Assembly (NCBI GenBank): GCA_964016885.1
Contig: OZ024751.1
Location: forward strand, 31,496,001-31,560,000
Source of the DNA: Eledone cirrhosa
Lineage: Eukaryota
Reading direction: 5' to 3'
Length of the DNA stretch: 64,000 nt
Shown here: positions 1-63,089 of the stretch, piece by piece
Layout: every line of letters begins with the position of its first letter
How positions within the stretch are numbered: position 1 is the stretch's first letter
Notes under the pieces: generated by a model
Told to the model about the DNA's origin: nothing
Databases searched by the model: none
What the model saw: only the letters and a program-made list of their open reading frames with translations
Made by a program: the position numbers and the translations under genes

Positions 1-693
1 CTCTCTTATTACTAAAGCTGGTTAAAATAACGATGGTATATATATATATACACACCATTTATGTTAGGAGTTTACCAATGGGTAGAACTGGTAGTTTGGC
101 TTGGTAAACAATGATGGAATAAATAAATTAAAGCACTCAATGTTATGCAAATCATCCATCGTAGGTGTGGTATCCTGTGGCTGGTGCAGGAACAAAGTTA
201 AGTATTCATTAAAACAATAATAGAAGGCCGGACTGGAAAATTTACTTTAGAATTTTAATTCTACGAAAACACTATAGATATTTCGATGGCCCAGCTCTAT
301 TATCTGATTATGATGCAAGACTAGACGGTTTCATTAGGTGTTATTTGTGGAATTATATAACAGGATTATGTTAAACCCAAACAGAGAATAGAAGATATAT
401 ATATATATATATATATATATGATGATGATATACAGAAAAATCAACATACATAGGTGTGTGAGTACATAAGAAAGAGATAGAGAGAGATAATGTGTGAGTG
501 GATGTATGTAAAGTATCCTATATATATATATATAGAAACATTTATCATCATCATCATCATCTTCGTTTAATGTCCATTATCCATGCTAGCATGGGTTAGA
601 TGATATATAGATGAATATAATATGATAGAATAAGGACCAGTTTCAGGTAGTTAGGAATGAAAAAGATTAAAGCTATTTTCTCTTGTGTTTTAG

Positions 694-812
694 GCAGAGA
701 ATGGGAGTCAATTATACCAGAAGATGATCGATTAAGAGTTGAAGAGGAGGAGAAACAAAAGCATATGGTGCAATTGACTTTACCTCCTCGAGTGAGAAAA
801 TCTATACATCAG
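694..812 (+). CDS. CHD1: CHD1 exon ([39 protein letters not shown])
   Basis: tttag acceptor, cag|gtatga donor, conserved WE.IIPE motif. Confidence 0.9.
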
Positions 813-3800
813 GTATGATTAATTGGGTTTATTGTTAATTGTGTGTATATAGAAAGTAGAAGAATGTCTAACTGGGTTTATTGTTCCTATTATAATACTG
901 ATGTATGTATTGACCATGATACTAAGGCTATAGAAGTTCCCATGAGGCTTTGGAGCTTACTTTAAGTTATGGTCACTTCAACTTCTATGTGTGAGAAGTA
1001 CTGAAACATGGCAACTATGTATACCAGGAACCCTTGCATGAGAGGAGTTGACTTCCCCTGCCGGAAACCTTTTTTTATCTGAACATAACTAGAACTTTTC
1101 CTCATTGTTATTTATGTAAACAATGAAATTCTATTATAATGAAATTCACTGAGTATTAAAAAAATTTGTTGTAACGAAAATTTCTTTATAACGAGATCAA
1201 CCAAAGCAAATTGAGCATTTGTTTGTTATTACCTTTGGGGGATCGAAAAAAAATTTGTTATAATGGTATTCGTTATAATGGAATTTTACCTGTAATAGTA
1301 AAATTGTTTAATTATATGTGTGTTAGGAATAAAGTGAGACAAACTAAATAAAGGGTTTTATTTTCTCCCAATAATGTTGAACAGATTCAGATGGATTCTG
1401 ATGAGGAAAAGAAAGGGCGGAAGAAAGAGAAAGATAGAGATGACACAGAAAGTTCTGAAGATGATGACGATGACAAACCTCGCAAAAGAGGTCGACCAAG
1501 GACTGTAAACAGGGATACTATCAAGGGTTTCACTGATGCCGAAGTTCGTAGATTTGTCAAAAGCTACAAGAAGATTCCTGATGCTATCAACAGGTGAATT
1601 TGTTGTTGTTAATTTGAAGGGTAGGGGTGGTAAGTTGGTAGAGTCGTTGAAGTGCCGGATGAAATGCTTTGTGGCGTTTGTTTCAGTTCATTATGTTCCG
1701 AGTTCAAATTCTGTCAAGGACAGCTTTCCTTTTCATCCTGCTGGAGTTGATAAAATAAAGTACCAGTCAAGTACTGAAGTCAATGCAATTGACTTCCCAA
1801 AATTGCTGTCCTCCTACCAATGTTAGAAACAGTTATTTTGAAATAGAATAGCAGTGAGATTAAGGGAGCAATCTAATAATATCAGAAACCATATTTATTA
1901 TTATTATTGCCGAGGTTAACTTTGCCTTTCATCCTTACAGGGTCGATAAAATAAAGTACCAGTAATACACTGGGATAATTGCTGGCCTTGTGCCAAAAGT
2001 AGAAATAATTATTATACTAGTTTACTTGACCAAAATATAAACATGATGGTTTGGTGGTTAGTGAGAGGAAAAATATCTAACGATATCTGATTATGAGACA
2101 TGGATATCTGATTATGAGACATAGATATCTGATTATGAGACATAGATATCTGATTATGAGACATGGATATCTGATTATGAGACATAGATATCTGATTATG
2201 AGACATGGATATCTGATTATGAGACATGGATATCTGATTATGAGACATAGATATCTGATTATGAGACATAGATATCTGATTATGAGACATAGATATCTGA
2301 TTATGAGACATAGATATCTGATTATGAGACATAGATATCTGATTATGAGACATAGATATCTGATTATGAGACATGGATATCTGATTATGAGACATGGATA
2401 TCTGATTATGTGACATGGATTATGAGAAATTGTAAAATATGGAGATTACATGAGGAAGAGGGGCTAACCAAGCTGGGTCTTTTGAAACAATTTAACTTTT
2501 TACTGAGTTAGGTGAAGATATTGAAAATGAGAGTAATTCTGGTGGGGTTAACATATTTTAGCTTCACTGTTTTTTGTTTTGTGTGCAAACAAATCTTAAT
2601 TAAATTTACTCTAAATTACAGATTAGATGCAATATCTCGAGATGCTGAACTGCAAGAGAAATCTGAAACAGATTTGAAACGACTAGCTGAGTTATTGAAA
2701 GAACGCTGTGAAAATGCTATGACTGAACACAGAGAAAGATTGGAAGAGGACCCAAATTTTGAAGGTCAATCTTAACAAAGGCTGAAATATGTCACTTTTT
2801 TCTTCTTTCTTCTTATGGGAATAATTTATTGATTTTTGAAGTCATCCAGGGTTTCCTACATTTTATTTTAATTTTAATTGTGGATTATGGTTTAAACAAA
2901 GTTATTGTTGGACCTGCATTGTTTCCAATGATAAATATTCCAGCTGATTCAGTCAATGGAACAGCTTGCTTGTGAAATTAACGTGTAAGTAGCTGAGCAT
3001 TCCACAGACACATGCATCCTTAATGTAGTTCTTAGGAAGATTCAGTATGATGCAATGTGTGACAAAGTTGACCCCTAAAATTACAGATACAACTCATTTT
3101 TACCAGCTGAGTGGACTGGAGCAACATGAAATAAAGTGTCTTGCTCAAGGACATAGTGGACTGGAGGAATGTGAAATAAAGTGTCTTGCTCTAGGACTCA
3201 ATGGACTGGAGCAATGTGAAATAAAGTATCTTACTCAAGGACACGGACTGGAGGAATGTGAAATAAGGTGTCTTGCTCAAGGACACAGTGGACTTGAGCA
3301 ATGTGAAATAAAGAGTCTTACTCAAAGACACAATGTGTTGCCCAGTCTGGAAATCGAACTCACAAACCAATGACTACAGCTCTAAGCAAAGTATAATTCA
3401 CTAAAACCTATCACTAGTAGTAGTAGTAGTAGCAGCAGTAGTAATAGTAGCCTGCCTCACCATATTTCAAATGCTCTCTAAACATGACAGTCCAAGCATT
3501 CCAGAGGTGTTTCACCATAAGTCTTTAGATGACCAGACAAGAGGTTAACATGTTGTAGCCTTAATTTTCAAGGGTCATGGTTACCTAGATTTATGGTTGT
3601 TGTTGATGTATAGCTCCAGATCAGTCATGTAGATTAGAATCACTGGGTGAAGAATTGCCAGGTGATGCCAGTAGAAAGAAAGTTAGAATGAAGGAAAACT
3701 TAGGCAGAGGTGGTTAGGGCTGAAAATCACAGAGGAAATGGTGAAGGAACACTATCTGTAGGGGATGGTTGTGCTTGGCAGGGCACATCCAAACCTTGCG

Positions 3801-6800
3801 GGCATGGAAAAGTGGATGTAAAGTAATGACGACAACGATGATGATGTTAATAGTTTGGATAACGCTAATATTGTTAATGACAACTCATCTCCGATGTTTA
3901 GATGTTGAGAAACCAGTATTTCAATTTCATATGCAATAATAGTTACAGCAGCTTATTTTTCTCTGTTCTTCCTTTTATAACAGTTGGAAAACGAACACAT
4001 CGGGGCCCTTCATTCAAATTATCTGCAGTCACCGTTAATGCTCAGGCAGTTTTAAAAATACAACAAGAATTGGAACCTTTATCTTCATGTTTGAAAATAA
4101 AAGATGGCAAAAAGATGTAAGTTTATTCACATCAGATTGTTTTTCTAATCAAACAATAGGATGGGAAAGAAAAAACAATTTCAAAACTAAAGACTGTTAA
4201 TGAAATTTGTTAAAGTCTTTCAGCTGTAACGAGGGGTGCATTTTGGGGCAGGCAGATAAGTGAGAGGGTAGGGCATTTGTTTGGTATATGTCTGTTTCTT
4301 AGAATTGATGAAGTAAAATCATTTCTTGGTATCTTTGTGTGTGTAAGTAGATATCTATATCTAGAAATGATGTCCCATTTAACCCATGCCAGCGTGAGAA
4401 AAGTGAATGTAAAAACTGATGATATGTAAACCTTTCTCGATCTCTCATATATATATATATGTATATATATTTAACCCATTAGCATTTACATTACTGTATA
4501 TTTACTATTAAATATTCACTTTATTTCACATAATATCGAATCTATGAGATTTTGATATTATTTATTTTGAGAACAGTATCTTATGAGTGGTTGGTTACAG
4601 CTGGTTTGAACAGAAAGAAGTGAGAGAATTCTGGCCGGATATGGCCAATTTAAATGCTAAATGGTTAATCTATTGTATTTGTATGTGTATATATATATAT
4701 AATAAATAATTGTGATGGTTGTTATTAATTATTTCAGTTATGAAATCAATGGCCGTGTGAAGTTGGTTCACTGGGACTGTATCTGGGAAATTGAAGATGA
4801 CATAAATCTACTTGTTGGCATTTATGAATATGGCGTTGGAAGTTGGGAAGATATCAAAATGGACCCAGAGCTTAATTTACGTGATAAGGTATATTCCCAA
4901 CTCAGTCTCTCCTTCTCTCTAGATATATTCCCAACTCTCTCTCCCTCTTTAGGTATATTTCCAACTCTCTCTCCCTCTCTAGGTATATTCCCAACTCTCT
5001 CTCCCTCTCTAGATATATTCCCAACTCTCTCTCCCTCTCTAGATATATTCCCAACTCTCTCTCCCTCTCTAGGTATATTCCCAACTCTCTCTCCCTCTCT
5101 AGATATATTCCCAACTCTCTCTCCCTCTTTAGGTATATTCCCAACTCTCTCTCCCTCTCTAGATATATTCCCAACTCTCTCTCCCTCTCTAGATATATTC
5201 CCAACTCTCTCTCCCTCTCTAGATATATTCCCAACTCTCTCTCCCTCTCTAGATATATTCCCAACTCTCTCTCCCTCTCTAGATATATTCCCAACTCTCT
5301 CTCCCTCTCTAGATATATTCCCAACTCTCTCTCCCTCTCTAGATATATTCCCAACTCTCTCTCCCTCTCTAGATATATTCCCAACTCTCTCTCCCTCTCT
5401 AGATATATTCCCAACTCTCTCTCCCTCTCTAGATATATTCCCAACTCTCTCTCCCTCTCTAGATATATTCCCAACTCTCTCTCCCTCTCTAGGTATATTC
5501 CCAACTCTCTCTGGATCAAAAGAAATCCAAGGCAGTACATCTGTGTGAGATAACAGGCCACATGTTGCCTAGAGAGGCAGCAATGTTAGACTTAATGGAT
5601 CCCCACACTATTTGTAGCTTTATGGGTCGCCACTATATTTGTTGATTTAATGGGTCTATACTCTATTTATAGATTTAATGGATCCCCACATTATTTGTAG
5701 CTTTAATGGGTCACTGCTATATTTGTAGATTTAATGGGTCTCCATTCTGTTTGTAGATTTAATGGGTGGTTGATGATCCCTTTGTTAAGTTCAACCACCT
5801 TTGTAGATATGTATTCTATTTCGTCCTATCAGGGTATTTGTCTCTTATTCCACGTAACAGGGTCACACCCTTGTGGGGTATTGCTGGTTTAGTTACCAAT
5901 GGCCTGATTGTGAAGCAAGTAGCACTGGTTTTTATAATTCCCAATAGCAGATCATTGGATATCACCTGACATTTATGTTAGTGTTTCACGCTAAAGATAG
6001 TATAACTCTTTATTTTTTCTGATTTTTATAGATTTTACCTGATTCTGACCAAAAACCTCAAGGTAAACACCTTCAAACGAGAGCTGATTATCTCATAAAA
6101 CTTCTGAAGAAGCAAAATGAAGTAATACCTGCTCCCATTACTGTAAGTCTTCAATATTTCTATATTACATCTCTTCTTCACCAAATATTATGTAGTTATT
6201 ATTATCACAAAATATATATATGTCCAACCCATGCAAGCATGGAAAAGTGGACATAAATACAATGATGATAATATATATATATATATATATAGTAGAAGCA
6301 AAATTTCATACATTTAACATGTATGTGTAACCATTAGTTTCGGGGTCCAGTTATGGCCACCACTGTATATTGGAGGAGGCACTTTGATCTTTCATCTACG
6401 GATTTCTACACACACGCACACGCATAGTAGGTCCTGAATCTGAACACCAGCATCCTTGGATATGACATCTAGATCCGAGAGCTTGCTGTGACCCCTTCGT
6501 CTTGACACAGGTGCAGGTTTCCAAAGAACCAAAGAGGACACAACTTGATTTGAGGCCCGATGTCAATGACCAGCAAACCTCACCTAAATTCTATGTAAAA
6601 CATTAGTTATATGTGGTAGACCACCATATATCTCTTGGAGAGTTTTGTGTTCCCTCCAGCTAACACTGAATTTAAACCCAACCTTTTGAACTCCAATTCC
6701 ACCCCAACTAACTCCACAAAAATATTTATAAAGAGTTACTTAATAATTATTTGAAAATATTGGATTAAAATTAAATCTACTTGATGTACCAAATATTGAA

Positions 6801-9272
6801 ATAATTGTTTTGTTGAATTTAAGAAAAAGAGATTCTTTAACCCTTTAGCATTTACTTTACTATTATATTTTTGTGGTAAAGGCTTTATCTCACGTAATAT
6901 GGAATCTACAAGATTTTGATGATGATATTATCTATTTTGAGAACAATACCTTAATGTCAGTATGAGTGGTGGGTTATGGCTGGTTTGAACAGAAAGGTGA
7001 GAGAATTCTGGCCAGATATGGCTGGTTTAAATGCTAAAGGGTCCATACACTTCGGTGTATTTCCACTCATGTTTTTTTACTGATAATTTTCAATTTGTAT
7101 GGAAATTTATCTCTATTTTGAACTCTTGCTGTCAGTATGTCCGTCCATCTGTTTATCTATATCTATCTTCTATCTCCCTACATCTATATCTATCTTCTAT
7201 CTGTCTGTATGTTTTTCCATCCATCTGTCCTATCTATTATGTATATGTGTATATATGTGTGTGTGTATGTATATATAATATATATGTCTTTGTGTATATA
7301 TATATATATATATACATATATGTGTATAAGTGTGTGTGTATGTATGTATATATATATATATGCGTGTGTGTCATCATCATTTTACGTCCTCTTTTCCCTG
7401 CTTGCAAGGGTGGGACGGGTCTTATTCAGCACAGCATCTCTCCACTTGTCACGATCCTTTGTAATCTCCACCGTGAGCTTCAGCGATCTGAGGTCTGTTC
7501 TCACCACCTCCGCCCATGTTTTTCGTGGTCTACCTCTAACACGACTTCCTTCAACTGGCATTTCCTGGCACTTCTTCACCCATCGGTCATCCTCCATGCG
7601 CATCACATGTCCATACCACCTCAGTCTCCTCTCTCACACACTACATTCTAGCCCTCTCAGACAGTTTCTCTCTCAACACATCCATGCTGGGTCGTTCACG
7701 CACATTGACATTGCACATCCAACGGAGCATGCTTGCCTCATTTCTCTCCAGCCGTCGCATATCCTCTGCAGTTGCTGCCCATGTCTCACTACCATGCAGC
7801 ATCGCGCTCCTCACACAGGCATCATACAACCGGCCTTTCGTAAGCAGGGAGAAACCCTTCTTCGTCGGCAGAGGAAGCAGCTCCCTAAATTTCTTCCAAC
7901 ACGTGCTTATTCTAGATACTATGGCCTCGGAACACCCCCCTCCCATGCTAATCTGATCTCCTAGGTACATATTTCTCCCTACCTGTTAGTTTGCCTGCTA
8001 TCCCACTACATCTCTTCTGTACCCAGGATTGGGTGCATTTTATAGAATTTATGCCAGTTCCTTTTCTGCATATCGAACATGTCCATTTCCCTGATGGAAT
8101 CAGAGTTTTGTCCTCTTTTCTACTCGTAAACACTTTTGTCTTAGCTAGGTTCACTCTCTGTGTGTGTGTGGAAAGCCACCTCATGGTACGACAACCAGAG
8201 ATACCAGAGTGTCATGTTTGTGGACGCTACCCCTGGAGGGAAATTAGCTAACCAGTGTAGAAAGGCCCTGAGAAAGACCCACTTAAAAATAAAGGTGGTA
8301 GAAAAGCCAGGAACCACCATAAAATCCCTGATCAGCAAAACCTACCCTTTTAAGAAAACCCACTGTACCAATAGGAAATGTATCATATGTAAGGTGAACT
8401 CCCGGATAAACTGTAAAACTAGAAACGTAGTCTATAGCATAAGATGTACAGAGGGTACTTGCAGAAACATGACAACAACATACATAGGTGAGACAGCTCG
8501 TAGCATAGGTGAAAGGATAGACCAACACTGGGGGGAACTAAAAGGACGAAAAAATGGGTCAGTACTATACGAACATGCTAGACAACAACATGACGGTAAC
8601 ATAGACAACATAGAAATTAGAATAATATCTAAACATAGAAATGACCCAGCAGATAGGCAAATCAGAGAGGCCAGTGAAATAGAAATTAGAAGACCAAGGC
8701 TAAACAGAAAGAATGAATGGAATAACAACAACACCCAAGCAAACAACACTGACCTAAGAGAAGTATAAATAAGTAAGTAAATAAAATAAAATAAATAAGA
8801 TAAATAAATACATACACAAGCACAATAACAACAAGCACATAAACACACACTAGTCACCCATCACACAGCAAACAAAACACTATAGACACATGCAAACGCA
8901 TGCGCAAAGAAGACAAAATAAAATAAACAAACAAGCAAATAAATAAATAAATATATAGACAGACTGAATAAAAATGGCGTAGACATACAATACAACAGGA
9001 GGAAAATATAACACCACTGACGATGTTGCAGATGTGCAACGAAAGATTTATGATAAACTATATATATGTGTTTGTGTCTATATTGTATCTGTATTATTTT
9101 TAACCGTTGGTCAGTCAATGGCAACATTGAGGACCGAGTAAGTTAGATTACCGATATAAAAGACAGCGAGAAGCGAAAACCAACCAAACAGTGAGTGTGT
9201 TCTGTTATTAATTCTGGCAATATTACACAAATATGACCCTCCCCAAGTATAACAATATATATATGTATATAT

Positions 9273-9360
<88 letters not shown>

Positions 9361-9361
9361 G

Positions 9362-9394
<33 letters not shown>

Positions 9395-9535
9395 GTATAT
9401 ATATATGTGTATATATATATGTGTATATATATATGTATATATATGTATATATATGTATATATATGTATATATATGTATGTATATATATGTGTATATATAT
9501 ATGTATATATGTATATATATGTATATATATGTATA

Positions 9536-9578
<43 letters not shown>

Positions 9579-9791
9579 GTATATATATATATATATACTC
9601 TTTCCAAACTATATATGGAACACTTGTGATTATTTATGCCCTTGAGAAGCCCAACTGGGCGAAACGTACGTAGGTGATATTTTAAATAAACATGTTTTAA
9701 CGGTCTATTCTCCGATTTTTACTTTCCCACGTGTATATATGTATATATATATATGTATATATATGTGTATATATATATATATATGTATATA

Positions 9792-9838
<47 letters not shown>

Positions 9839-12466
9839 GGAGGCACATGGCTTAGTGGTTAGAGCATTGGGCTTGCAATCGAAAGGTTGTGAGTTCAATT
9901 TTCAAACCGGGTGATGTGTTGTTTCCTTGAGCAAGACACTTTATTTCACATTGCTCCAGTTTACTCAGCTGTAGAAATGAGATGATAGGACTAGGGTCCC
10001 TATCATTCCACTGCAAAGTGGTCGTGGAGGTGCCACGGCAAAAAAGCACCCAGCCCACACTGTAAATGAGGTTGGTGTTAGGAAGGGCATCCAGCTGTAG
10101 AAATCAAGCCAGAATCAGTTCCCGTCCCACCCTTGCAAGCAGGGAAAGGCGGACATAAAATGCTGCTGCTGATGATGATGATGTTATATATATTCTGTTG
10201 TAATTTGCAGTTGGCCCCTAAGATAAAGAAACAGAGGAAAAAGAAACCCAAGTCAGCTGAAATAGTTGCTGAAATTAATGAAGCTGGTGACATGAGTGCG
10301 AAAGAGGAGACCAATGATAGTTTCCCTGACAGTGTGAAAAGTGGGAAGAAGAAAAGGAAGGATGAGAAAGAAGAGAAGTCTGATGAGAAACAAGATGATG
10401 AAAAGAAAGACGATAAAAAAGAAAAGAAAGAGAAGAAGAAAAAAGAGAAAGTCAGTTTCTTTTTCATTTATTTTGTATTTATTCTTTTACCATCTTCAAC
10501 TGATCCGGCTGGATCCTCAAGTGAGACCAGCCAAGCTCATGGATGTTATCCAACCATCTTGCTTAGAGTCTACTCCTGGCTCTCCTGCCTGTTGGATTTG
10601 CCCGTAAGATCTGGCCAGTGATTCTTTGCTGAGACATTCTAACAACACTAGCCTGTACTATTGGAGCTGTGATCTCTCAATTCAGAGAAGTAGTGGCTCT
10701 ACTTTGAGTGACTCTCTGGTCTCAGTGCTACGCACTCTATCGAGTAATGTTACTCCAAAGACCCTTCAAAGGAGCCTTATTTCAGCTACTTGTATTCACG
10801 TTCATATTCTTTCAGTCATTACCTAAGATTCATGACCACAGATAAGAGTTGACATGAATACTGAATTGAAGATAGCGAGTTTGGCTTTCACACCTATCTC
10901 CCTTCTGATGACCGAATGCAATAATGTGCCAACTTCAGCAATTCTTTTTTAAACTTGTTCCACTCCCATATTTACCAAAAGTTTCTATGATCTTCAATAA
11001 TAATTATAACAGAAATATTTCTGTTTCAAAATTAATGTCCATGAACAATTATCATTTATCTCTGTCTTTCATATCAAAATGAAACCTTTTTTTTCAATTT
11101 GTATTTGATTGTGAAATGAGTCCAACATTGTAAATATAAACTCTCCCTTTCTTTTCTAACATTTCTTTTAGAAAAAGAAAAATGATGGCCCAATGCATTT
11201 CACAGCATCTTCTGAACCTGTTGCCATATCAAAAGAAGCCATGGATGTTGACTTACCTCCAGAGGTGTTTACTGAGGTCAGTTTTGTTGACAATTGAACC
11301 TGGATCAAATTTTTGATATGTGGTCACCTTACCAATCTAGCCTCACTATCTCACCAATCTACCCTCCCTATCTCACCAATCTAGCCTCACTATCTCACCA
11401 ATCTACCCTCCCTATCTCACCAATCTACCCTCACTATCTCACCAATCTACCCTCCCTATCTCACCAATCTACCCTCCCTATCTCACCAATCTACCCTCAC
11501 TATCTCACCAATCTACCCTCACTATCTCACCAATCTACCCTCACTATCTCACCAATCTACCCTTACTATCTCACCAATCTACCCTCCCTATCTCACCAAT
11601 CTACCCTCACTATCTCACCAATCTACCCTCCCTATCTCACCAATCTACCCTTACTATCTCACCAATCTACCCTCACTATCTCACCAATCTACCCTCACTA
11701 CCTCACCAATCTACCCTCACTACTTCACCAATCTACCCTCACTACCTCACCAATCTACCCTCACTACCTCACCAATCTACCCTCACTACTTCACCAATCT
11801 ACCCTCACTACCTCACCAAAGATTCATTACCTCACTAATCTAGTCTCGTCTACTTGACCACTCTAACCTCCATTACCTGACAAACTATCAAACCTAGGCA
11901 AGCATTAAATGATGATGATGATGATTGAGAATGTTATTTTGTTGATGTTAACTCTAGGTCAGCCCACATTGTGCACACCTAGGATTAAACACATTCCAGA
12001 TATGGTCATCTTGTCCTTCTTTCATGCATCGCATACCTAAGACTCCTATTATCTAATGTGTTCTTACCTTTCCAAGACAATGGAATTTGGTTTGAAGCTT
12101 GATTTCACTGTAACCAATCTAGATAGTCTATTTTCCATGCTGGTAATAATCGGATGGGTTGTTTTAAGACTAGACTGATCAGGTGACAATGTTTTGTTTG
12201 TATGTTCCATTTTTAAATGGTTTCTATGGTTGAATGTCTTTCCTAATGTTAACCACTTTACAGAGCATACTGGGTACATTTTAATGTGGTACCAGCACTA
12301 TCACTTTATAAAGTAGCTGGGTGATTTTTATAATGGCATCACTATTACCACTTTACAAAGCATATTGGGTACATTTTATTATGGCACTATTACTACCACT
12401 TTACAGAGTGTAGTGGGTGTATTTTATTGTGACACCAGTACTACCAGTGTATATATATACACACAC

Positions 12467-12499
<33 letters not shown>

Positions 12500-15400
12500 C
12501 ACACACACATACATGTGTGTGTGTATGTTGTTATCAATAATAGTTGAATAATTTATAGCTCTTGTACCATTGACTCTGCAGTGCAAGGAGAAGATGCGAC
12601 CGGTAAAGAAATCCCTGAAGCAGCTGAGTAATCCAGATGAGAGTTTATCTGAAAAAGAACTCCTGAATCAAACCCGACAGTGCCTGCTCAAGATTGGTGA
12701 CCATATCCATAACAGACTTTCAGGTTATAATAATCCAGAGAGAATCAAGGAATGGCGAAAGTAAGTTTGACCACTGACCTTCTTTTCTCTGATGAGTTTG
12801 CTGTGATGGATGTGTGATGTTAATAGATGTGAATGACAAAGCATGGATGAGCTGAGAGAAAAGAGGAATTAGATGTAGTGTGCAGGAGAGGAGACTGCAC
12901 TGGTATGGACATGTGATAACATGAATGACAAAGCATGGATGAGTTGAGAGAAAAACTGCACTGGTATGGACATGTAATATATATGGATAGTGATCGTGGG
13001 ATGAAGAAGTGCCGAGAAATCTCAGTGGAAGGAAGCTACAATTGAGGGAGATCAAGGAAAACCAGGGCAGAGGTAATGAGAGCTGATCTCAAATCACTTA
13101 ATCTCACAGAGGAGATGACAAGTGGAGAGATGCTATGCTGGAAAAGACCTGTCCAACCCATGCAAACATAGAACAGATATGAAACAATGATGGTAGTGAT
13201 GATGAGGGGGGGGGGGGGGGCTGGAAAGGGAGATGTAAAACAATGATGGTGCCTATATAAAGTAACAGCAGGATGTTGTTACTTTATATAGGCAGGAAGG
13301 AGTGAAGTGGTATATATATATTGTTACCTGACAGTAGTTAAAGACCAGTGTGGCTACAACCCTGGCTGAAAGGCTTTAAAAGACCAAACAACTACTTGCT
13401 TTTATTCTAATATACTCACAGTTCAAATCTTTCGTACATCGGATTTGCCTTTCTTTCATCTGAGAATTGATAAAATAAAATAAAACCTTTTCTTTCAGTT
13501 ATTTGTGGATATTTGTATCAGAGTTTGCTGACGCTCCACCTAAAAAGTTGTATAAATTGTATCGAACTGCTGTAAAGAAGAGAGAAGAAGAACAAGAACA
13601 GAAAGAAAAGGTCAGTTCAATTCTTTTCTTACCGTATTTCCAATGAAAAACACTGCCTATGGTTTTCAAATTAATTTGAAAATAATTAAGAATTTGGAGG
13701 GATTTAGTAATGTAACTAATATTCTGTTTACAAAGCTGGTGTTTGGAACATAACTTAACAAAGATACTTATATATAAAATTATGATGGGAAGGCTTTTAG
13801 ATATAAACACTTTAAAATAAACGTTTTTGTATGATAGAACCAGGGGTGGTTTCAAGTGGTTTGGTATCAAAAAGGGTTAAGTTACGAGAAGGTTTTTGTT
13901 CTATGACAATAATCATCAGCAGTCTCACTGATGGCACTTGATCCACATCTACAACATACGTGTTGGTCTACCATGTTATTAACACTACACACTACCTACT
14001 ACTATATGTATATATACACACAAACAACATGTTGGTCTACCATGTTAGTATCACTACAAACTGCCTGCTACTATATATATATATATATATATATGTAGGT
14101 GTCACGACAAAAAGCATCCAGTCCACGCTGTAAAGTGGTTGTGTAGGTGTCATGACAAAAAGCACCCAGCACACTCTGTAAATGTGGTTGGTGTTAGGAA
14201 GGGCATCCAGCCGTAGGAACCAAGCCAAATCAGTTCTGAGTGAGCGAATCATGGTCCCCTGACTTGATCCCTCACAAATGGACAGCCCGTCCTACCCATG
14301 CTAGCATGGAAGATGGACGTTAAATGATGATGATAATGGTATACACACACACACAACATAAACAATGTGTTGGTCTACCGTGTTACTAACACTTCACACT
14401 ACCTGCTACTTCATATCTTTAAATACTGTGTGTGTGTACATACATATATATATAATCGATGGAAGCCGCGTAGTGAGGAGACCCAAGAAGACCCGGGATA
14501 AGGTGATAAAAGCCGACCTTACCCAATTGCATCTCTCAAGAGCGATGACACAGGACTGTGACCTGGTGTCACGCAGTAATACAGAAGACCCGACTTCCCA
14601 GGGGTACAAACCGAAGCTGAAGCATATAGACAATGTGCCCACCCTCCCACTGCAAAGTGGTCGTGGAGGTGCCACGGCAAAAAAGCACCCAGCCCACACT
14701 GTAAAGTGGACGTGTAGGCGCCATGGAAAAAAAGCACCCAGCTTTCACTGTAAATGAGGTTGGTGTTAGGAAGGGCATCCAGCTGTAGAAATCAAGCCAG
14801 AATCAGTTCCCGTATGAGCAAGACAAGGTCAGCCGACTGGACACTGCCCACAACAGGACAACCCGTCTAACCCATGCTAGCGTGGAAGAATGGACGTAAA
14901 ACGATGATGATATATATATATATATATATATGCACACAACATCCAATATGCTGGTTTACCATGTTACCAACACTACACACTGCCGCTACTCCATATCTAT
15001 ATTGTTCTGTTATATATAAACTACTATTTTCTCTCTAATCCATGTTTATACCAACTGTGTGACTGGCTCTCTTCTAGGATATATAAAATATAGCACTTAG
15101 TTATGTAAATGTTTTTCTATCTACTGAACTAATTTACCACCATGTCACTTTCTGTCTGGTTGGCACATTGCTTCTCAAAACACTACACACACGGACACCA
15201 CACACGCACACACACTCTCTCTCTTCTGTCTTTATTGTAAAGTTTAACTCTATTTATAATGGTGATGATGATGATGTCTAAAGTAATATATATTTATCTA
15301 TGATGTCTAAAGTAATATATATTTATCTATGATATCTAAAATTTTATATATATATCTATGATGTCTAAAGTTTTATATATTTATCTATGATGTCTAAAGT

Positions 15401-16205
15401 TTTATATATTTATCTATGATGTCTAAAATTTTATATATTTATCTATGATGTCTAAAGTTTTATATATTTATCTATGATGTCTAAAATGTTATATATTTAT
15501 CTATGATGTCTAAAATTTTATATATTTATCTATGATGTCTAAAGTTTTATATATTTATCTATGATGTCTAAAGTTTTATATATTTATCTATGATGTCTAA
15601 AGTTTTATATATTTATCTATGATGTCTAAAGCAATATATATTTATCTATTCAGAAACCAAAATTTCCTGAAAACAAACAATTATCTAACTACAAAATTGC
15701 TAAACGACCTAGAGTTCAAAATGAACGGAAAGATGGTGGCAAGAGAACCTATAGTTCTGATCATTGGGGTGACAAAAGTAGAGACAGGTAACTCTCTCTC
15801 TCTCCCCTCCAAGTGCGAACCTAATATAACTGTTTATTTTTGCATCCTTGTGTTTGTTTTGTTTCCTTTATTAACTTTATATATATATATATATGTCTTC
15901 TGATATAGCCTTGGGTCTGCCATAGAATTTTCTATGAAATTTGGTAAACAAACAGTTAGGAAGACTGTTGAATTTGTGTGTGTCTGTGTATGTATTCATT
16001 TTACACACACAGATTCACATTGGACAGGTTTCCTAAGAGTTTTAACATGTGTCACTGGCATCAGATCTTTATTGAACCAAAATGCATTGTGATATTTAAA
16101 TCCACTAAGTTACACCCTTCTATGTAGGGAGATGATGGGATTGATGGGGTGATACGAAGTAGAAAGACGGGACATATATAAATATTTCTATGTGTGTGTG
16201 TTTGT

Positions 16206-16253
<48 letters not shown>

Positions 16254-17449
16254 CTGTAAATGTGGCTATATGTGTGTTTGTATGCATATATATATATTAT
16301 ATATATATAAAAATATGAGTCCCAGGTTTAATCAGGGTAACCACAGTTAAGGTACTCAATGCATTAGTAGAGTGTAAACATCATGTTTAATATATGGCTT
16401 CTACAGGTCTAGAACTGTTTCATTCAAAAGAAATCCTGATGATTTCTTTTGAACGAAACAGTTCTAGCCCTGTAAAAGCCATTTCTATATTAAACATGAT
16501 ATATATATATAATAATAATGAGTATAGTACCAGGAAAAACAGGAATAACTAGAGAAGAAGAATTGGTTAGAAGGAGAAATTTATTGAGAGTTCATTCCTT
16601 AACATATGTTTCTGTACAATATCCACCTACATGTGCTGACTACAAAATCTTATGCTTAATCGTATGCATTACGTAATAAATGATTGCACTTTCATCAGAA
16701 AGAGAAAAATTGTTATAGTCCAAGGCGAGGTCGTCACATTTTCGTAAAAGTTTTACTTACAGCGAACTGATCCGAGGTACATGCTATATATAGATGCATA
16801 CGTGTGTGTGTGTGTGTATGCATATATATATATATATATTTGTTTTGCAAGGTTTTTTACATGAAATAGTGTCGAAACAAATATTGTTATACTTGGGGAG
16901 GGTCATATTGTTGTAATATAGCCAGAAATAATAACAGAACACACTCACTGTTTGGTTGGTTTACGCTTCTGTATCTTTTATATCTCCATAGTTAATTTAT
17001 TTGACAATTAATGTTTATCATTGATTGACCAGTAGTTAAAAATACAGATATAAATATATATATATAAAGTCTATCAAAGTTCTTTCGTTGCACATTTGTA
17101 ACATCATCAGTGGTACTATTATGTTTCTTCCTGTTGTATTGTATGTCTACACCATTTTTATTTTTATTTATTTAAATAAATTAAAATTTAATTTATGACT
17201 ATATTTGTTGTATCTCTTCCACAGTACATCGTCTCACAGCAATGGTCCATGGCACAGCTCTTCCAATTCTAATCTTAATCATCCAACATCATTCCGTAAT
17301 TTATTAGGTAATTCAGGGAGAGAATCAAACCGCCATGATTCTCTTCCATCTTCTAATATGAACCCTCATCCAGAGAGATGGCAACATTCTAGTCCTTTGT
17401 CCAGAACAGGAGATCAGAAAAGAAACAGGTATGTATGAACAATGTGTGC

Positions 17450-17495
<46 letters not shown>

Positions 17496-20400
17496 GTGTT
17501 TGTGTGTGGAAAGTCAACAAGGAAAACATGCAGAAGAACAATAGTACAATGATGATATATGTCAGTTTTAACATGTGCCAAAGAGTCCCAATGTTTTGGA
17601 TGTTAGTCCTTCATTGGAAGATAGAATCGAGGATAGAAGAAATAGGAAGGTAGACGAAAGTTAGAAATGAATACTGTAGCTTGTTGTTGTTGAGCAAATG
17701 TGGTCGGTCTCTAATAGAGATGTGAACTGAAAAATAAGTCAGTAGAGCATTCTGACACAGGATAGTATATGTCTCAATTTATTGATAATATGATCAAGAT
17801 GGTAACTAGAAGAAGAACCAGAAGAGAAGGACTTGGGTGAGTAGGTGATTTTGATGGGTGGAACAGTGATGATAGCTATATGTTTGCTGGAGAGAGAGAG
17901 AATGATGACAGCTACATGTTAGCTAGTGAATGAGAGAGAGAGTGATGACAGCTACATGTTAGCTAGTGAATGAGAGAGAGAGAGAGAGTGATGACAGCTA
18001 CATGTTAGCTAGTGAATGAGAGAGAGAGAGTGATGACTAGCAATAGAGAGAATTGCAATGGTAGGGTGTGTAGATGTAAATCTTAATACATACATCACAT
18101 GTCATGATGAGAGAGACGTAGAGTGAATTGAATACAGACATGTCTGATGCAGTTCTATGTTACATATGGTATCCTAGTGCAAGGAATAGGAAAGATGGCA
18201 ATGGAAAGGTGTGAAAGAAACTGGACAGGGTGCAGCCAATGAAGAGGCATATTGAACAGTCATTAGATATATCAGGACTATATTGAACAGTCATCAGATA
18301 TATCAGGACTATATTGAACAGTCATCAGATATATCAGGACTATATTGAACAGTCATCAGATATATCAGGGTCATATTGAACAGTCATCAGATATATCAGG
18401 GTCATATTGAACAGTCATTAGATATATCAGGACTATATTGAACAGTCATCAGATATATCAGGACTATATTGAACAGTCATCAGATATATCAGGACTATAT
18501 TGAACAGTCATCAGATATATCAGGGTCATATTGAACAGTCATCAGATATATCAGGACTATATTGAACAGTCATCAGATATATCAGGGTCATATTGAACAG
18601 TCATCAGATATATCAGGACTATATTGAACAGTCATCAGATATATCAGGGTCATATTGAACAGTCATCAGATATATCAGGGCCTTATTGAACAGTCATCAG
18701 ATATATCAGGGTCATATTGAACAGTCATCAGATATATCAGGGCCATATTGAACAGTCATCAGATATATCAGGGTCATATTGAACAGTCATCAGATATATC
18801 AGGGTCATATTGAACAGTCATCAGATATATCAGGGTCATATTGAACAGTCATCAGATATATCAGGACTATATTGAACAGTCATCAGATATATCAGGGCCT
18901 TATTGAACAGTCATCAGATATATCAGGACTATATTGAACAGTCATCAGATATATCAGGGCCTTATTGAACAGTCATCAGATATATCAGGACTATATTGAA
19001 CAGTCATCAGATATATCAGGGCCTTATTGAACAGTCATCAGATATATCAGGGTCATATTGAACAGTCATCAGATATATCAGGGTCATATTGAACAGTCAT
19101 CAGATATATCAGGGCCATATTGAACAGTCATCAGATATATCAGGGCCATATTGAACAGTCATCAGATATATCAGGATCATATTGAACAGTCATTAGATAT
19201 ATCAGGGCCATATTGAACAGTCATCAGATATATCAGGGCCATATTGAACAGTCATCAGATATATCAGGACTATATTGAACAGTCATCAGATATATCAGGG
19301 TCATATTGAACAGTCATCAGATATATCAGGACTATATTGAACAGTCATCAGATATATCAGGGCCCTATAGTATGGAATGTCAACTATTTGACAAGGGACC
19401 CTATAGTATGGCATGTCAACAGTCATCACTGTTTTTTGTCATTTCCTTTGTAGAGATCAGTCTTTATCCGATGTCTTCCTTCATCTGCTTCTTCCACGTA
19501 CCCTGCACTTCTTTATGCAGCTGCCACATCATTCATACGCATCAGTGTATATATATTTATGTATGGATGTGTGAGTGTGTATATATTTATGTATGGATGT
19601 GTGAGTGTGTATATATTTATGTATGGATGTGTGAGTGTGTATATATTTATGTATGGATGTGTGAGTGTGTATATATTTATGTATGGATGTGTGAGTGTGT
19701 ATATATGTATGTATGTATGCATACAACAGACTTTTGTACAGTTTTCACCTACCTAATTCTATTTACAAATAATTGACCAAGCTGTAGCTATAGTATAAAC
19801 TTAGCCAAGACACCCCACAGATGGATTGAACCCAAAACCATGTGGTTGTAAAGTGAAAACCTTAACCACACAGCCATGTCCTGTGCCAAGTTATTTTGAT
19901 TAACATGCAGTTACCTTAAATGTGTGAGTTCACTTGGGTACTGTTGATATTACAGGTATGATGTTGGTTCCAACACTTACAACCGTGTCTCACATTCTCA
20001 GCCTGATATGTACCGAGGATATCATGGTGGTGACCATCACCACAGGTTGGTATATTTTTCACTTCTGTGTTTTTTTAACTTCATTGCATTTCCATGCCCC
20101 TCCCCCCTTCTTCAGTATGTGAGCACCCTACATCTACTATATATTTTTATCTTTGTTCTCTACACTGTTTCCTCTTTTAACATCATCATCATCATAGACT
20201 GGTCAGTACTCAAGTGAAGCCTCTGACCTCCAGGTGGGCCAGTGGCCTGACATATAATACCACACTTTACTCAGTGAAGTGAACTCTCTGACATGAGATA
20301 CTACACTCTATTCAATCAAGTGAAGCCTCTGACCTTCAAGTGGGCCAGTGGCCTGATATGGGATACTACACTCTACTCAGTGTATTTTATTGTGGTCGCT

Positions 20401-21505: not shown

Positions 21506-21922
21506 AGGCTTCCATTCAGCTTTTGTTGTGAAATATTTCTTTTGCTTTTCCTGAGGAATAAATAACCGGCGCTTTAGGACTTGAGATGTGAGGTACTACT
21601 TGACTTGGATCGGTCATTTCATCTCAAGACAAGAGAAAAACAAACAAACAAATAAAAAGAAACTGATCATTTCATATACACACACATATGCGCATGTGTG
21701 CACACACACACATATATAAATACATACACACACACATAACGTGGTGTGTGTAACTGTATAAAACATATCTCTCTTATTTGGCTGTGGATGTCTTTGGCAT
21801 CATTGAATCTCCCACTCCCACATATTCCCAATAGAAAATTGCACCCTCTTAAAACAATGTCTTCTGGCCTGGTGACACCAGTGAAATCTGCTGCTGCTAT
21901 CACGTCTTCACATTATTTACAC

Positions 21923-21973
<51 letters not shown>

Positions 21974-22536
21974 TATAATCAGTTTCTTGAATTGCAGTTA
22001 ATGCAGACATAAACCACGTTCTGCATAAACATATTGAATTGATATCTTTCTCATCTGGTTATATACAAGGAGCTGTTGCCTGATGGATGTGTACACACAT
22101 GGAGAATATGCTTGTAAATGTATAACATAGTCCTACATGTCATGTGTTCTGGAGTAAATTGCTTCTTCCTCCATTCACAATGTTGAATGTATGTGTCTGT
22201 CTACTCTCCCATTCACAGCTCCTTCATCTATAATCAATCCCCCATTCACAATAATGTAGAGTGTATGTGTCTGTCCACACTCCCTTTCACAGTTCCTTCA
22301 TCTATAACCAGTCCCCCATTCACAATCAGTCTGCACAATTCACTATTAGTTTTGTTTATTTTTTTCAAACTCTGTAGCTTATTTCAAGCTGAAATTTTAA
22401 CCTAACTCCTAATTTATTTATTTTTTCTATCTTTCTCCCTTTAAAAAAAAAAAAAAAATTACATTGCTGCCCTATTAATGAAAACTTCCAAATTATATAT
22501 GCACCATTAAGTTGGTAGTTCAAAAAGAAACTAAAC

Positions 22537-22567
<31 letters not shown>

Positions 22568-23737
22568 TTGCACACACACACACACACATAATATATATAT
22601 ATACATACACACAAAATTTGAAGAAAAAAAAAAGACAAACACAAGAACCGAATGTTGTTGTAAAAACAAAACTATATATTGTATCTAACAAATTTGGACC
22701 ATCGAAGACAACATGTACTATTACTATTATTGTTGTTGTTGTTTTTAGTGGTGGTGGTGGTTAGATAAATGTGAAATAATACAGAACAGTTGATTGACAC
22801 ATGGAAACAAAGAGAGAAGCTATTGTATAAATATATCCAACTCAGTATATCTTGTTTGCTTCTTAAGAAATAATTCAGTTGAATTTCTCAACTAAACAGA
22901 GAAGAATAACTGAACAATGCACAATTATAATAACCCTTTCATTGCCATATTTCTTCTCATGAAAGATGAAAGAAAGACTCTGTATATGATATCAAATAAA
23001 AATTTGAAGGGATTTAGTAATATAACTAACTTTCTCGTTATTAAGATGGTGTTTCAAACCCCTCTTCCTCTTTCCTGTTCTCCCAAATAAATACATATTT
23101 GGAGGGATTTAGTAAGATAACTAACCTTTTTTGTTATTAAGCTGGTGTTTTGAACTCTTACTCTCGCCCTTTCCCCCAAATAAATACATATTTGAAGGGA
23201 TTTAGTAATGTAACTAACTTTCTCATTTTTAAGGAAGCTCTCTCCCACTCTCGCTTTCCCCAAAAATAAATAAAAATAAAATAAAAAAATTTCAACAACA
23301 AAATAATGCTGCAAAAGTAAATGTAGAAACATTTGCTCCCCCCAAAGAATTTTCACAAACAAACCTTACATCATCATCATCAATTAACGTCTATCTTCCA
23401 CCTTAGTATGGGTTAGACGGGTTTGTCCCAATTAGAGGCAAGTTGGGTCGTGTGACTGTCTCGCACTCATATAGGAGAGTTTCTGGCTGGTTTTCTACAG
23501 CTGGATGCCCTTCCTAACGCCAAACACATTGACAGTGTGTGCTGGGTGCTTTTTGCTGTCTTTTACACGTCCACTTTAGTGTGGGCTGGGTATTTTGGGG
23601 CTGGTTTTCTACAGCTGGATGTGCTTCCTAACGCCAACCACATTTACAGTGTGTGCTGGGTACTTTTTGTTGTGACATCTTTTATATTGTTACTATTATG
23701 TGTGCAATGTACTGACAACACACACACGCACACTGTA

Positions 23738-23768
<31 letters not shown>

Positions 23769-26697: not shown

Positions 26698-26751
<54 letters not shown>

Positions 26752-27328
26752 TCAAGTGACAAACCAAAGGTGATACTTCAAATCATTTTATTAACATCTA
26801 CACATGTTTCCATTTTAATGTAATTAGGTAACACTATATATATATGTAAATATTATACAAATATATTATATAAATATATGATATATATATATATTATACA
26901 TTTATATATTATATATCATCATCATCATTTTGTGTCCGCTTTTCCTTGCCTGCAAGGGTGGGATGGGTCCTTTTCAGCACACCATCTCTCCACACATATA
27001 TATATTTTTTAATGTTACCTGATTACATTAGAATTGATACAAGCATAGATGTTAATAAAATGATTTGATTTTCATTTGAATTAGTATATATATACACATA
27101 CACACACACATATAGTTGTATGCACCCACATATATTTAAATAGATATGCATGAACAATGTGCAACAAAACAATTTGGATATTGCTCAAATATGGTGAATA
27201 ACAATCACAATTTGGCTGCCCAGTATCAATAGAGATATATTATTATTTATACAAATGATAGGTTCTGGGCAAAATATATCACAGAATGCTTAAAACGAAT
27301 TATTATTGGATTGGTAGACCTGTTAAAG

Positions 27329-27637
27329 CAGTGGTTCCCAACCTTTTAGGTACCATGCCTCACCTCAACATCTAAAAAATTGTTTCCCCCCATCCCCTTT
27401 GATATGAAAACAGCAATCATCAACTGCAAAGTGTATACAAATTGGTGTATAGGTGGTGCCAGATACACAATAACATGTGGAAAAGGAGGTGAGACAGGAG
27501 TTTCTGACAGTAATGTGTATCAAAGGTGCCTTGGTGTAAAAGTAATAAAGTAAAACCTTAGGTTTGTTCTCATTAACATCATTTTCAAATGGCCACCTTA
27601 AATATTCAGGGTGTGTGCCCCACATTGGGAATCACTA
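27329..27637. mobile_element. hAT (Charlie-like) MITE
   Basis: TIRs cagtggttcccaa / ttgggaatcacta; 8-bp flanks tgttaaag / tgttagag. Confidence 0.7.
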
Positions 27638-28891: not shown

Positions 28892-62125
<33,234 letters not shown>

Positions 62126-62649
62126 TTCTCATGTAATTGTTTTCAGTTTCATCGATAGACAAAATTTATAAACACATATTTAGGAAGTGGCTCTCCTCGT
62201 AAACGGTGAAGTAGCAAAGAACTTTCCGTGAAATAAATATTCCGCTTACATTATCTGAAAAAATTTGGGGTTTCATTCGTTTGGCAAGTAACTTAACCTG
62301 AGACTGAATATTGAAACTGAAACAATTATTGCGGGAACAGTAATTTTAGCCATTGAATAAAAACATACAAAAACGGTTAACTTTACTTTATATTTATTAT
62401 TTAGTTCCTGCTGTCAAAAATTTTCGTTACACTGTGGAGTTAAAAGATTTTGTGTGTTTTTAAATAACTAAAATAATTCTTCTCAATCAAGAAAAATTCT
62501 TCCGAAGTTCCCTGATTAGCTGAGATTTCTAACAGTGCTCAAAAACTGTGATTACTCAGCGGAACTACAGTCAGGACATTAACTATGTAATTAGGTAAAA
62601 AATGTTCTTATCTTGTTTACTTTTCCAATATATATATATATATATACCA

Positions 62650-62825
62650 ACACCAACTCTGCCCTCCCACCCCTACCAAGTTCCCATCTACCTCTCGCTC
62701 TTCCCCCGAACTCCATAACTTCAGACTTGTCACCATCAACGTTGGCACCATGAAAGGTAGACATGGAGAGACTGTAGAGAAATGCTTGAACGAATGAAAG
62801 TCGATGTGTGCTGTGTACAAGACAC
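62650..62825 (+). mobile_element. RTE LINE endonuclease N-terminal fragment
   Basis: RLVTINVGTMKGR...VDVCCVQ. Confidence 0.65.
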
Positions 62826-62974
62826 ATATATATAAGCGTATATCATTGTCATCATATGTGCATGTATTTCACTACGGTTCTTAAAGACAACCTTAACGGT
62901 TGGAGGAAGCTCCAACCGTTAAGGTTGTCTTTTTTCAGGGTATGTCAATATTTATTTATAAAACTAATCTGTAT

Positions 62975-63045
62975 TGTATTTTATCTGATGAAAGCGCACC
63001 ATAATTTGCCTTGGTGGCCCTTGAAATATGTATAATAAAATAAAT
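62975..63045 (+). ncRNA. Type I hammerhead-ribozyme-like motif, canonical core
   Basis: uauuuuau-CUGAUGA-aag..cacca/uggug..cuu-GAAA-uaugua-UA-auaaaaua; 8-bp stem I. Confidence 0.65.
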
Positions 63046-63089
63046 ATGGTTTTATAAATATAGTTTCCATTTATTAATATATTGTATAT

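What the first reader, a model, noticed from the sequence alone, without database searches (positions are those of the whole stretch)
262..63045. Diverse population of minimal hammerhead-ribozyme-like cassettes scattered through the locus
Seen: about nine motifs of the form CUGANGA-stem II-GAAA-short stem III, at about 262-345(-), 9633-9680(+), 16436-16465(+), 16590-16706(-), 26800-26830/27015-27045, 48985-49035(-), 49426-49455(+), 61565-61605(-) and 62975-63045(+), plus a decayed one at about 17585-17620(-). Stem III is often palindromic (ACGUACGU, ACAUAUGU, AACGUU). Most lie beside (TA)n tracts and several are followed shortly by AATAAA or ATTAAA. Stem II sequences are unrelated, which implies at least six separate families in 64 kb. 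Known: Penelope-like element pseudo-LTRs carry minimal type I hammerheads with palindromic stem III that are thought to cleave as dimers. Inference: these are solo pLTRs or non-autonomous retrozyme-like elements mobilised by the GIY-YIG Penelope element seen here. The class is known; this density and diversity inside host introns may be undescribed for this lineage.
Basis: partly seen in the sequence, partly recalled or inferred. Interest (0 to 1): 0.72.

Follow-up and report, generated by a model that had tools for sequence, protein, structure and literature searches.

The report
Hammerhead-tipped ends of Penelope retrotransposons
The motifs are mostly decayed end-pieces of nine abundant repeat families, seven of them traced to Penelope-type jumping genes, each carrying a predicted self-cutting RNA of a kind already known, and this locus holds no more of them than the rest of the genome.

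Summary
All 11 listed sites exist and belong to 8 dispersed repeat families; a ninth family (4 copies) was missed. Only 5 of 11 keep both core boxes. At 26.8/27.0 kb the real 5' box is cut off; at 49426 the CUGAAGA is made by a fold-back junction (native copies read CAGAAGA). The hammerhead fold is real at family level: 16 full motifs in 599 kb of sampled genome against 0.7 shuffled, compensatory stem II changes in one family, 2,452 exact intact copies of another. Seven families sit in pseudo-LTR position on protein-coding Penelope-like elements: five Hydra-clade, one Neptune-like, one Nematis-like. Only the last belongs to the window's GIY-YIG ORF. Two families have no partner found. Density in the window (3.1 per 100 kb) equals the sample (2.7). 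Solo copies, inverted pairs, U3-A8, U10.1-U11.1 and an octopus Hydra element with a hammerhead are all in print; this scan noted the same on other windows of this genome. Left open: one family reached at least 16,533 copies with a fixed U4A core change, so it may spread without cutting. Cleavage untested. New members of a known kind; low interest.

The parts
270..343 (-). Family H hammerhead, long stem II; this copy has G5A. Family continues downstream to the window start; Hydra-clade pseudo-LTR (one linked place)
   Evidence: (L189/L312)
8145..8768 (+). 5'-truncated C-terminal GIY-YIG-type ORF of a Nematis-like PLE (clade label from recalled features); parent of family I
   Evidence: no Pfam hit
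9013..9054 (+).
9598..9735 (+). Family B solo pseudo-LTR end between (TA)n tracts; hammerhead 9636-9678 with U3-A8 core, 4-bp stem II, 8-nt palindromic stem III; identical to the commonest form (28 of 34 copies)
16341..16510 (.). Family D head-to-head fold-back insertion with a tail on the left arm; hammerhead 16433-16480 (+): boxes intact, 4-bp stem III, stem I broken here (upstream strand replaced, G1.1A), buried in a 42-bp hairpin
16595..16704 (-). Family F hammerhead with about 80-nt stem II region, A.A at the base of stem II, palindromic stem III; no partner ORF established
17071..17114 (-). Decayed family I copy
17586..17621 (-). Decayed family A copy (both boxes changed)
26778..26836 (-). 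Family G 3' half, inverted partner of 27007-27068; the family's 5' core box is cut off
27007..27068 (+). Family G 3' half; 5' box missing and GAAA changed; Hydra-clade pseudo-LTR
   Evidence: L201/L311
48891..49130 (-). Family A 3' end ending in (TA)n; hammerhead 48998-49033 with G12A; Neptune-like parent
49271..49500 (.). Family E palindromic insertion (67-bp arms, tail on the left); hammerhead-like 49422-49472 (+) whose CUGAAGA spans the fold-back junction; native family core is CAGAAGA; Hydra-clade pseudo-LTR
61462..61654 (-). Family A copy; hammerhead 61568-61604 with A6U
62883..63095 (+). Family C copy with short fold-back at its 5' end; hammerhead 62977-63043, boxes intact, interrupted stem II that covaries across subfamilies; no partner ORF found
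63249..64000 (.). Family I inverted pair (63249-63390 minus, cut inside the hammerhead; hammerhead 63851-63893 plus) around an endonuclease fragment at 63390-63533

Best explanation
These cassettes are copies of nine dispersed repeat families, seven of which are shown to be the pseudo-LTR ends of protein-coding Penelope-like retrotransposons, likely left behind when target-primed reverse transcription into (TA)n stopped early, and their hammerhead is predicted to process the parent element's RNA rather than to do anything at this locus. Shown: family membership, position of the motif before and after the ORF (direct repeats 3326 nt apart in L166 and 3259 nt apart in L379), variable 5' truncation, inverted pairs, optional tails, (TA)n flanks. 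Inferred from PMC11167929 and PMC4209133: the element's enzyme nicks both target strands and starts copying at two sites just downstream of the hammerhead, so the hammerhead is the first thing copied and survives in even the shortest insertions; two such copies joined head to head give the hairpins at 16.4, 49.4 and 62.9 kb. Families with a palindromic stem III (A, B, C, F, G, H) would cut as dimers; D and E have a 4-bp stem III and could fold as monomers. After insertion the copies decay; 6 of the 11 listed sites have lost a core box and two more are buried in hairpins. C and F are assigned to PLEs by anatomy only.
For: Dispersed families; exact genome-wide counts A 2,452, D 20,009, E 16,533, reversed-pattern controls 0. 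ORF links by loci (some loci overlap): B Hydra ORF upstream in 24 of 37, E 18 of 104 up and 5 down, D 5 of 87 up and 4 down, I 29 of 45, A 8 of 64, G 3 of 26, H 2 of 27; 927-codon open frame in L167 with RWK, DKT/DRT, CxCx5C, CxxC, CxH as given for Hydra in PMC8557442 section 11. Descriptor 16 in 599.4 kb against 0.7 shuffled. Family C: 97.1% of cells paired, 6 of 9 stem II pairs change on both sides, 0 of 500 shuffles reach the score, slid controls 38-51% paired. D: loop II varies freely inside an invariant 34-mer.
Against: No cleavage or expression data. Rfam shows no hammerhead family among the 150 listed of 195 matches. Minimum-energy folds of 11 motifs mostly show only stem II and are no better than shuffles for 8 of 11. 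Covariation is weak for D (1 pair) and not significant by pair count for G (99 of 500 shuffles), and I drew these structures from the same sequences. C (0 convincing links in 59 loci) and F (3 of 26 loci with nearby PLE fragments of mixed kind) have no established parent. G and H rest on one or two places each. Clade labels for A and I rest on recalled motifs, not a tree.
Confidence: 0.88

Rival explanations
1. Some families, most plausibly C and F, are short protein-less elements (retrozyme- or SINE-like) with their own RNA, copied in trans by Hydra-clade enzymes.
For: No parent ORF found for C or F; many C copies are head-to-head pairs that meet at nearly the same point about 70 nt upstream of the core; both have the AATAAA-type hexamer seen in the Hydra-linked families; tandem hammerhead arrays exist in this genome (L234, L277).
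Against: No window copy is tandem. The same idea for D and E failed once unbiased copies were read: both share long upstream sequence and flank ORFs. Some C copies share sequence beyond the usual apex (L011, L296), and F copies share 150-340 nt upstream.
Confidence: 0.25
2. The motifs are chance matches in AT-rich, hairpin-prone DNA.
For: Strict descriptor finds none in the window; boxes plus stem II alone are only 5 against 1.7; most folds are not better than shuffles.
Against: 16 against 0.7 in the sample; thousands of exact copies with zero controls; compensatory changes; 14 unrelated families in the fetched loci share the same core geometry.
Confidence: 0.02
3. The cassettes have been kept by the host as intronic ribozymes that cut or tune the pre-mRNA of the two genes.
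For: Several lie in introns of a CHD1/2-like gene (Pfam hit; spliced contig in run X4); B (9636) and I (9013) have intact boxes on the sense strand.
Against: 6 of 11 listed sites have lost a box; density equals the genome sample; B is a young copy 98-99% identical to its siblings and would need a second copy to form stem III.
Confidence: 0.03

Closest known systems
Minimal hammerheads of metazoan PLE pseudo-LTRs (Cervera and De la Pena 2014, PMC4209133; parts 1-2 of 4 read)
   Same: Type I order, short stem I, long stem II, extra base between 9 and 10.1, palindromic 15.2-16.2, U3-A8 variant, several families per genome, mostly single motifs from truncated elements, inverted pairs 100-700 bp apart.
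   Different: D and E have a 4-bp stem III with a loop; D, E, G start stem II with U.U; E has U4A; F and H have very long stem II regions. Estimated total here (about 80,000) is above the 2,000-9,000 given there, with different descriptors and genome sizes.
Hydra clade of C-terminal EN+ PLEs, including Hydra-1_Obim (Craig et al. 2021, PMC8557442; passages, section 11 and supplement rows seen)
   Same: RWK, DKT, CxCx5C linker, CxxC and CxH in the endonuclease, (TA)n targets, canonical hammerhead, tails and inverted 5'-truncated copies; an Octopus member with a listed hammerhead.
   Different: Elements here are about 3.3 kb rather than under 3 kb, have clear pseudo-LTRs, and at least five families with different hammerheads; the listed Hydra-1_oBim hammerhead is none of the nine families.
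PAc, Poseidon element of Anolis (Frangieh et al. 2024, PMC11167929; passages read)
   Same: Tail defined by two start sites of reverse transcription; both target strands cut and extended; hammerhead upstream of the start sites.
   Different: Different clade; there the ORF starts inside the hammerhead. Their result that cleavage is not needed for insertion in vitro fits family E but was not tested here.
Metazoan non-LTR retrozymes (PMC7229834, passages; bioRxiv 10.64898/2026.07.22.740005, part 1 of 5)
   Same: Type I hammerheads in non-coding repeats related to PLE pseudo-LTRs.
   Different: Retrozymes are tandem 170-400 nt units; the window copies are single or inverted, and 7 of 9 families are parts of coding elements.

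Membership tests
Type I hammerhead (minimal PLE form) | Core C3-U4-G5-A6-N7-G8-A9 (or U3/A8) and G12-A13-A14, A15.1-U16.1, H17 in type I order | tested here: met
   Met by the commonest forms of A, B, C, D, F, G, H, I; met by only 5 of 11 listed window copies
Type I hammerhead (minimal PLE form) | U4 in family E | tested here: not met
   70 of 71 native copies have A4, none U; the first 100 of 16,533 exact matches all have A. E is hammerhead-shaped, not a consensus hammerhead
Type I hammerhead (minimal PLE form) | Stems I-III supported by covariation | tested here: met
   Clear for stem II of C; weak for D, partial for G; not tested for A, B, E, F, H, I
Type I hammerhead (minimal PLE form) | Palindromic stem III allowing dimer | tested here: met
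   A, B, C, F, G, H (some through G.U); not D and E (looped stem), doubtful for I
Type I hammerhead (minimal PLE form) | Self-cleavage after H17 | not testable with these tools
   No assay; contigs cannot show RNA ends
Penelope-like element pseudo-LTR | Motif flanks an RT plus GIY-YIG ORF as a direct repeat | tested here: met
   B (L166) and E (L379) both sides; D, G, H ORF start downstream; A and I endonuclease upstream
Penelope-like element pseudo-LTR | Same, for families C and F | tested here: inconclusive
   No consistent ORF within 1.5 kb in 59 and 26 loci
Penelope-like element pseudo-LTR | 5' truncation, inverted copies, optional tail | tested here: met
Hydra clade | RWK, DKT, CxCx5C, CxxC and CxH, no CCHH, (TA)n insertion | tested here: met
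   Read from L166/L167 (B; RWK, DKT or DRT) and L379, L339 (E, D; RWR, DKT); 44% identity B to E partner; G and H by similarity only; no tree
Neptune (family A) and Nematis (family I) clades | CX2-5CxxC linker before a C-terminal GIY-YIG domain; clade placement | tested here: inconclusive
   Linker seen in both translations; weak GIY-YIG hit for the A partner, none for the window ORF; split between the two clades is recalled, no reference sequences compared
Non-LTR retrozyme | Tandem units each with a hammerhead | tested here: not met
   No window copy is tandem
Non-LTR retrozyme | Circular or monomeric RNA | not testable with these tools
   No run on record as RNA; only contigs

The most novel reading that the evidence does not exclude
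Family E is a Hydra-clade retrotransposon that reached at least 16,533 near-identical copies with a hammerhead fixed for U4A, U.U at the base of stem II and a UU cleavage site while keeping all three stems: either a natural core variant that still cuts, or a mass expansion with a non-cutting ribozyme fold that serves as a structural signal. With D (intact core, same architecture, 20,009 copies) it gives a natural matched pair for asking what Penelope hammerheads are for.
Probability: 0.4. Interest if true: 0.5.

Novelty: new member of a known kind. Interest (0 to 1): 0.27.

Why it matters
As a locus it matters little: it shows the ordinary debris of Penelope-like elements. The useful points are genome-wide. 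This octopod-type genome likely holds on the order of 10^5 such motifs from at least 14 families, which repeat annotations seen here do not mention, and it offers natural core variants (U3-A8, U10.1-U11.1, U4A) on young, very abundant elements. The role of the PLE hammerhead is still open; a family that thrives with a changed core would bear directly on whether cutting is needed in vivo.

Tried and rejected
Strict descriptor: 0 window hits; loosened afterwards, so the window count of 2 is after tuning, while the 599-kb sample was not used for tuning. Rfam scan: no hammerhead among listed matches, only (TA)n-driven miRNA hits. Energy folding does not recover the hammerheads. Idea that D and E are tiny elements with a fixed 5' end: rejected, it came from querying with hairpin copies; unbiased copies share up to 1.4 kb upstream and flank ORFs. 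Idea, prompted by earlier notes, that D or E are non-circularly permuted hammerheads: rejected, both read in ordinary type I order once a looped stem III is allowed. One mobiliser for all families: rejected. Higher density in the window by family search (25 against 8 per 100 kb): discounted because the seeds came from the window. Upstream extension of C was swamped by overlapping loci and gave nothing. Sequencing runs: no RNA holder listed; contigs laid on 7900-17800 gave exon places but nothing on cleavage. Look-ups of earlier notes by D and E sequence and near this window were empty. One script timed out and one crashed midway; both were redone. Luense et al. 2017 (PMC5785218) is not held and Figure 5 of PMC3088659 is an image, so U4A may already be described; only parts of the PMC8557442 supplement were seen.
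Full report
Setting. The window is G000:C11:31496001-31560000 of a 3.0-Gb animal genome, 36% G+C, without N, rich in (TA)n and minisatellites. The repeats and proteins point to an octopod (inference). It holds a CHD1/2-like gene on the plus strand.

What is at the coordinates. All 11 listed sites exist. Searching the own genome with each showed a dispersed family: first-look candidates A 2286, B 1347, C 1008, D 2383, E 142 (hairpin form), F 537, H 1474, G 27, and I 1375 (lower bounds). Family I (9017+, 63855+, 17114-, 63389-) was not in the finding. Only 5 of 11 sites keep both core boxes. Reading the families corrected three sites. G: the family's 5' box is CTGAGGA, ten-pair stem II follows, and both window copies are cut inside stem II, so the supposed box is loop II. 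E: native copies read CAGAAGA in 70 of 71 cases and never U at position 4; the U appears only in fold-back copies, 15 of 26 arms. D and E: stem III is a 4-bp helix with an 8-9-nt loop, not a short palindrome, and stem II starts with U.U. In the window both sit in long hairpins.

More than chance. A strict descriptor found nothing in the window or in 15 shuffles. With stem I loosened it found 2 (B and I) against 0.02 in 50 shuffles. In 60 stretches of 10 kb taken at fixed positions (599.4 kb; 20 from C11, 40 from other chromosomes) it found 16 against a shuffled sum of 0.7. A broader descriptor gave 3 in the window against 0.2, and 53 in the sample against 1.7, 26 of them in two tandem arrays. 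Exact counts in the whole genome: 2,452 for the intact 34-nt hammerhead of A, 20,009 for D with a free loop II, 16,533 for E; reversed controls 0. Across 305 fetched loci 115 full motifs fell into 14 families, 102 with G10.1-C11.1 (weighted by my own queries). Covariation: C, 41 of 54 distinct copies aligned, 97.1% paired, 6 of 9 stem II pairs changed on both sides, 0 of 500 shuffles, slid controls 38-51%. D, 33 of 70 copies (mostly those keeping the upstream strand), 87.9%, one such pair. G, 21 copies, 87.0%, six such pairs but 99 of 500 shuffles reach that count. The structures were drawn from these sequences. Against: no hammerhead among 150 listed of 195 Rfam matches, and energy folds unremarkable for 8 of 11.

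Density. Window 3.1 per 100 kb against 2.7 in the sample; 4.7 against 8.8 with the broader descriptor. The locus is ordinary. Scaling 16 per 599 kb gives about 80,000 motifs (roughly 46,000-130,000 by Poisson limits; my arithmetic, sample not random). Published counts with other descriptors: about 2,000 plus 1,300 in Schistosoma, 4,000 in coelacanth, 9,000 in Xenopus (PMC4209133), over 6,000 in 16 families in Acropora and 126,247 in axolotl (PMC7229834 passages).

Parents. B: hammerhead, ORF, hammerhead 3326 nt apart in L166, and a 927-codon open frame in L167 with the Hydra marks of PMC8557442 section 11. E: direct repeats 3259 nt apart around a Hydra ORF in L379, 44% identical to B's. D: Hydra ORF starts about 150 nt after the motif in L325 and L339, and copies share up to 1.4 kb upstream. 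G and H: Hydra fragments from the N-terminus to the endonuclease follow the motif in L311 and L312; one or two places each. A: a different endonuclease lies 400-560 nt upstream in L021, L025, L169, with RT in L309; Neptune-like by recalled motifs. I: the window's ORF 8145-8768, upstream in 19 of 24 loci; Nematis-like by recalled motifs. It barely aligns with the Hydra protein, so it is not the common mobiliser. C and F: no consistent ORF in 59 and 26 loci.

Mechanism. Shown: anatomy and positions above; (TA)n within 130 nt at 11 of 13 sites against 24%; AATAAA/ATTAAA within 45 nt of the predicted cut at 8 of 13 against 5.4% (background is window-wide). Inferred from PMC11167929 (passages): the enzyme cuts and extends both target strands and starts at two sites downstream of the hammerhead, which explains tails, head-to-head pairs and why short insertions keep the hammerhead. 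Inferred from PMC4209133 and PMC6765202 (passages): palindromic forms cut slowly as dimers in the parent transcript. The solo copies here are likely inert. Cleavage was not tested.

Comparison and novelty. PMC4209133 already describes solo minimal hammerheads, several families per genome, U3-A8, the extra base and close inverted pairs. U10.1-U11.1 is reported in PMC3088659 (passages). Hydra-1_Obim of Octopus bimaculoides, inserted in (TA)n and with a listed hammerhead, is in the supplement of PMC8557442. Searches for hammerhead with Penelope and octopus or cephalopod returned no paper that counts such motifs in an octopus; a 2026 repeat annotation of Octopus vulgaris has no occurrence of 'ribozyme' or 'hammerhead' (PMC13282606). 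'U4A' does not occur in the text of PMC3088659, but its figure and Luense et al. 2017 could not be seen. PMC5680766 (passages) added nothing; the 2026 retrozyme preprint (part 1 of 5) ties retrozymes to PLE pseudo-LTRs. Earlier notes of this scan report the same kind of thing on other windows of this genome; they gave the Hydra-1_Obim lead, which I checked, and are not counted as support.

Verdict. Real features, partly misread at single sites; new members of a known kind; the locus is not special. Interest 0.27. The boldest open reading is family E, a very abundant element with a fixed U4A core (probability 0.4 that this is an undescribed active variant or a true case of spread without cutting; interest 0.5 if so).

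Noticed in passing
window 49271-49500; L116-L140: Fold-back copies of family E carry a fixed one-base difference between their arms near the apex, and the tail lies on either arm; this fits two cDNAs annealing at a short palindrome, with both daughter strands seen (inference).
   Followed up: partly
L234 (7 copies) and L277 (19 copies): Tandem arrays with one hammerhead per unit and U.U at the base of stem II, retrozyme-like.
   Followed up: no
window 62940-62950 (+); L005, L021, L025 about 190 nt upstream of the core: Pyrimidine run plus CAG|G, like a 3' splice site, upstream of the hammerhead in families C and A; recalls the intron end next to the D. virilis Penelope hammerhead.
   Followed up: no
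window 1358-20924 (+): CHD1/2-like gene (Pfam PF23588 at 4706-4888); a 5332-nt contig of run X4 joins exons 10211-10411, 12580-12760, 15652-15783, 17221-17433, so that unlabelled run looks like RNA.
   Followed up: partly
window about 46850-53000 (-): Short exons that read like a MAP kinase kinase (recalled likeness; no Pfam hit).
   Followed up: no
window 47259-48681 (-), 51299-52135 (+), 7641-7985 (-): Fragments of an RTE-like LINE reverse transcriptase (label recalled from translations).
   Followed up: no
window 18248-19368: 31-nt minisatellite with CTGATGA in most units on the minus strand but no GAAA or stems; not a hammerhead.
   Followed up: yes
window 33627-39237: 21-nt minisatellite of about 269 copies, one of many long arrays in the window.
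   Followed up: no
window 50590-50838: Long inverted repeat of a common short repeat end around (TA)n; source of the top Rfam miRNA hit.
   Followed up: no
L314:135-5162 (-): 1676-codon open frame of beta-propeller-like appearance beside a family I copy that recurs about every 57 kb on C2.
   Followed up: no
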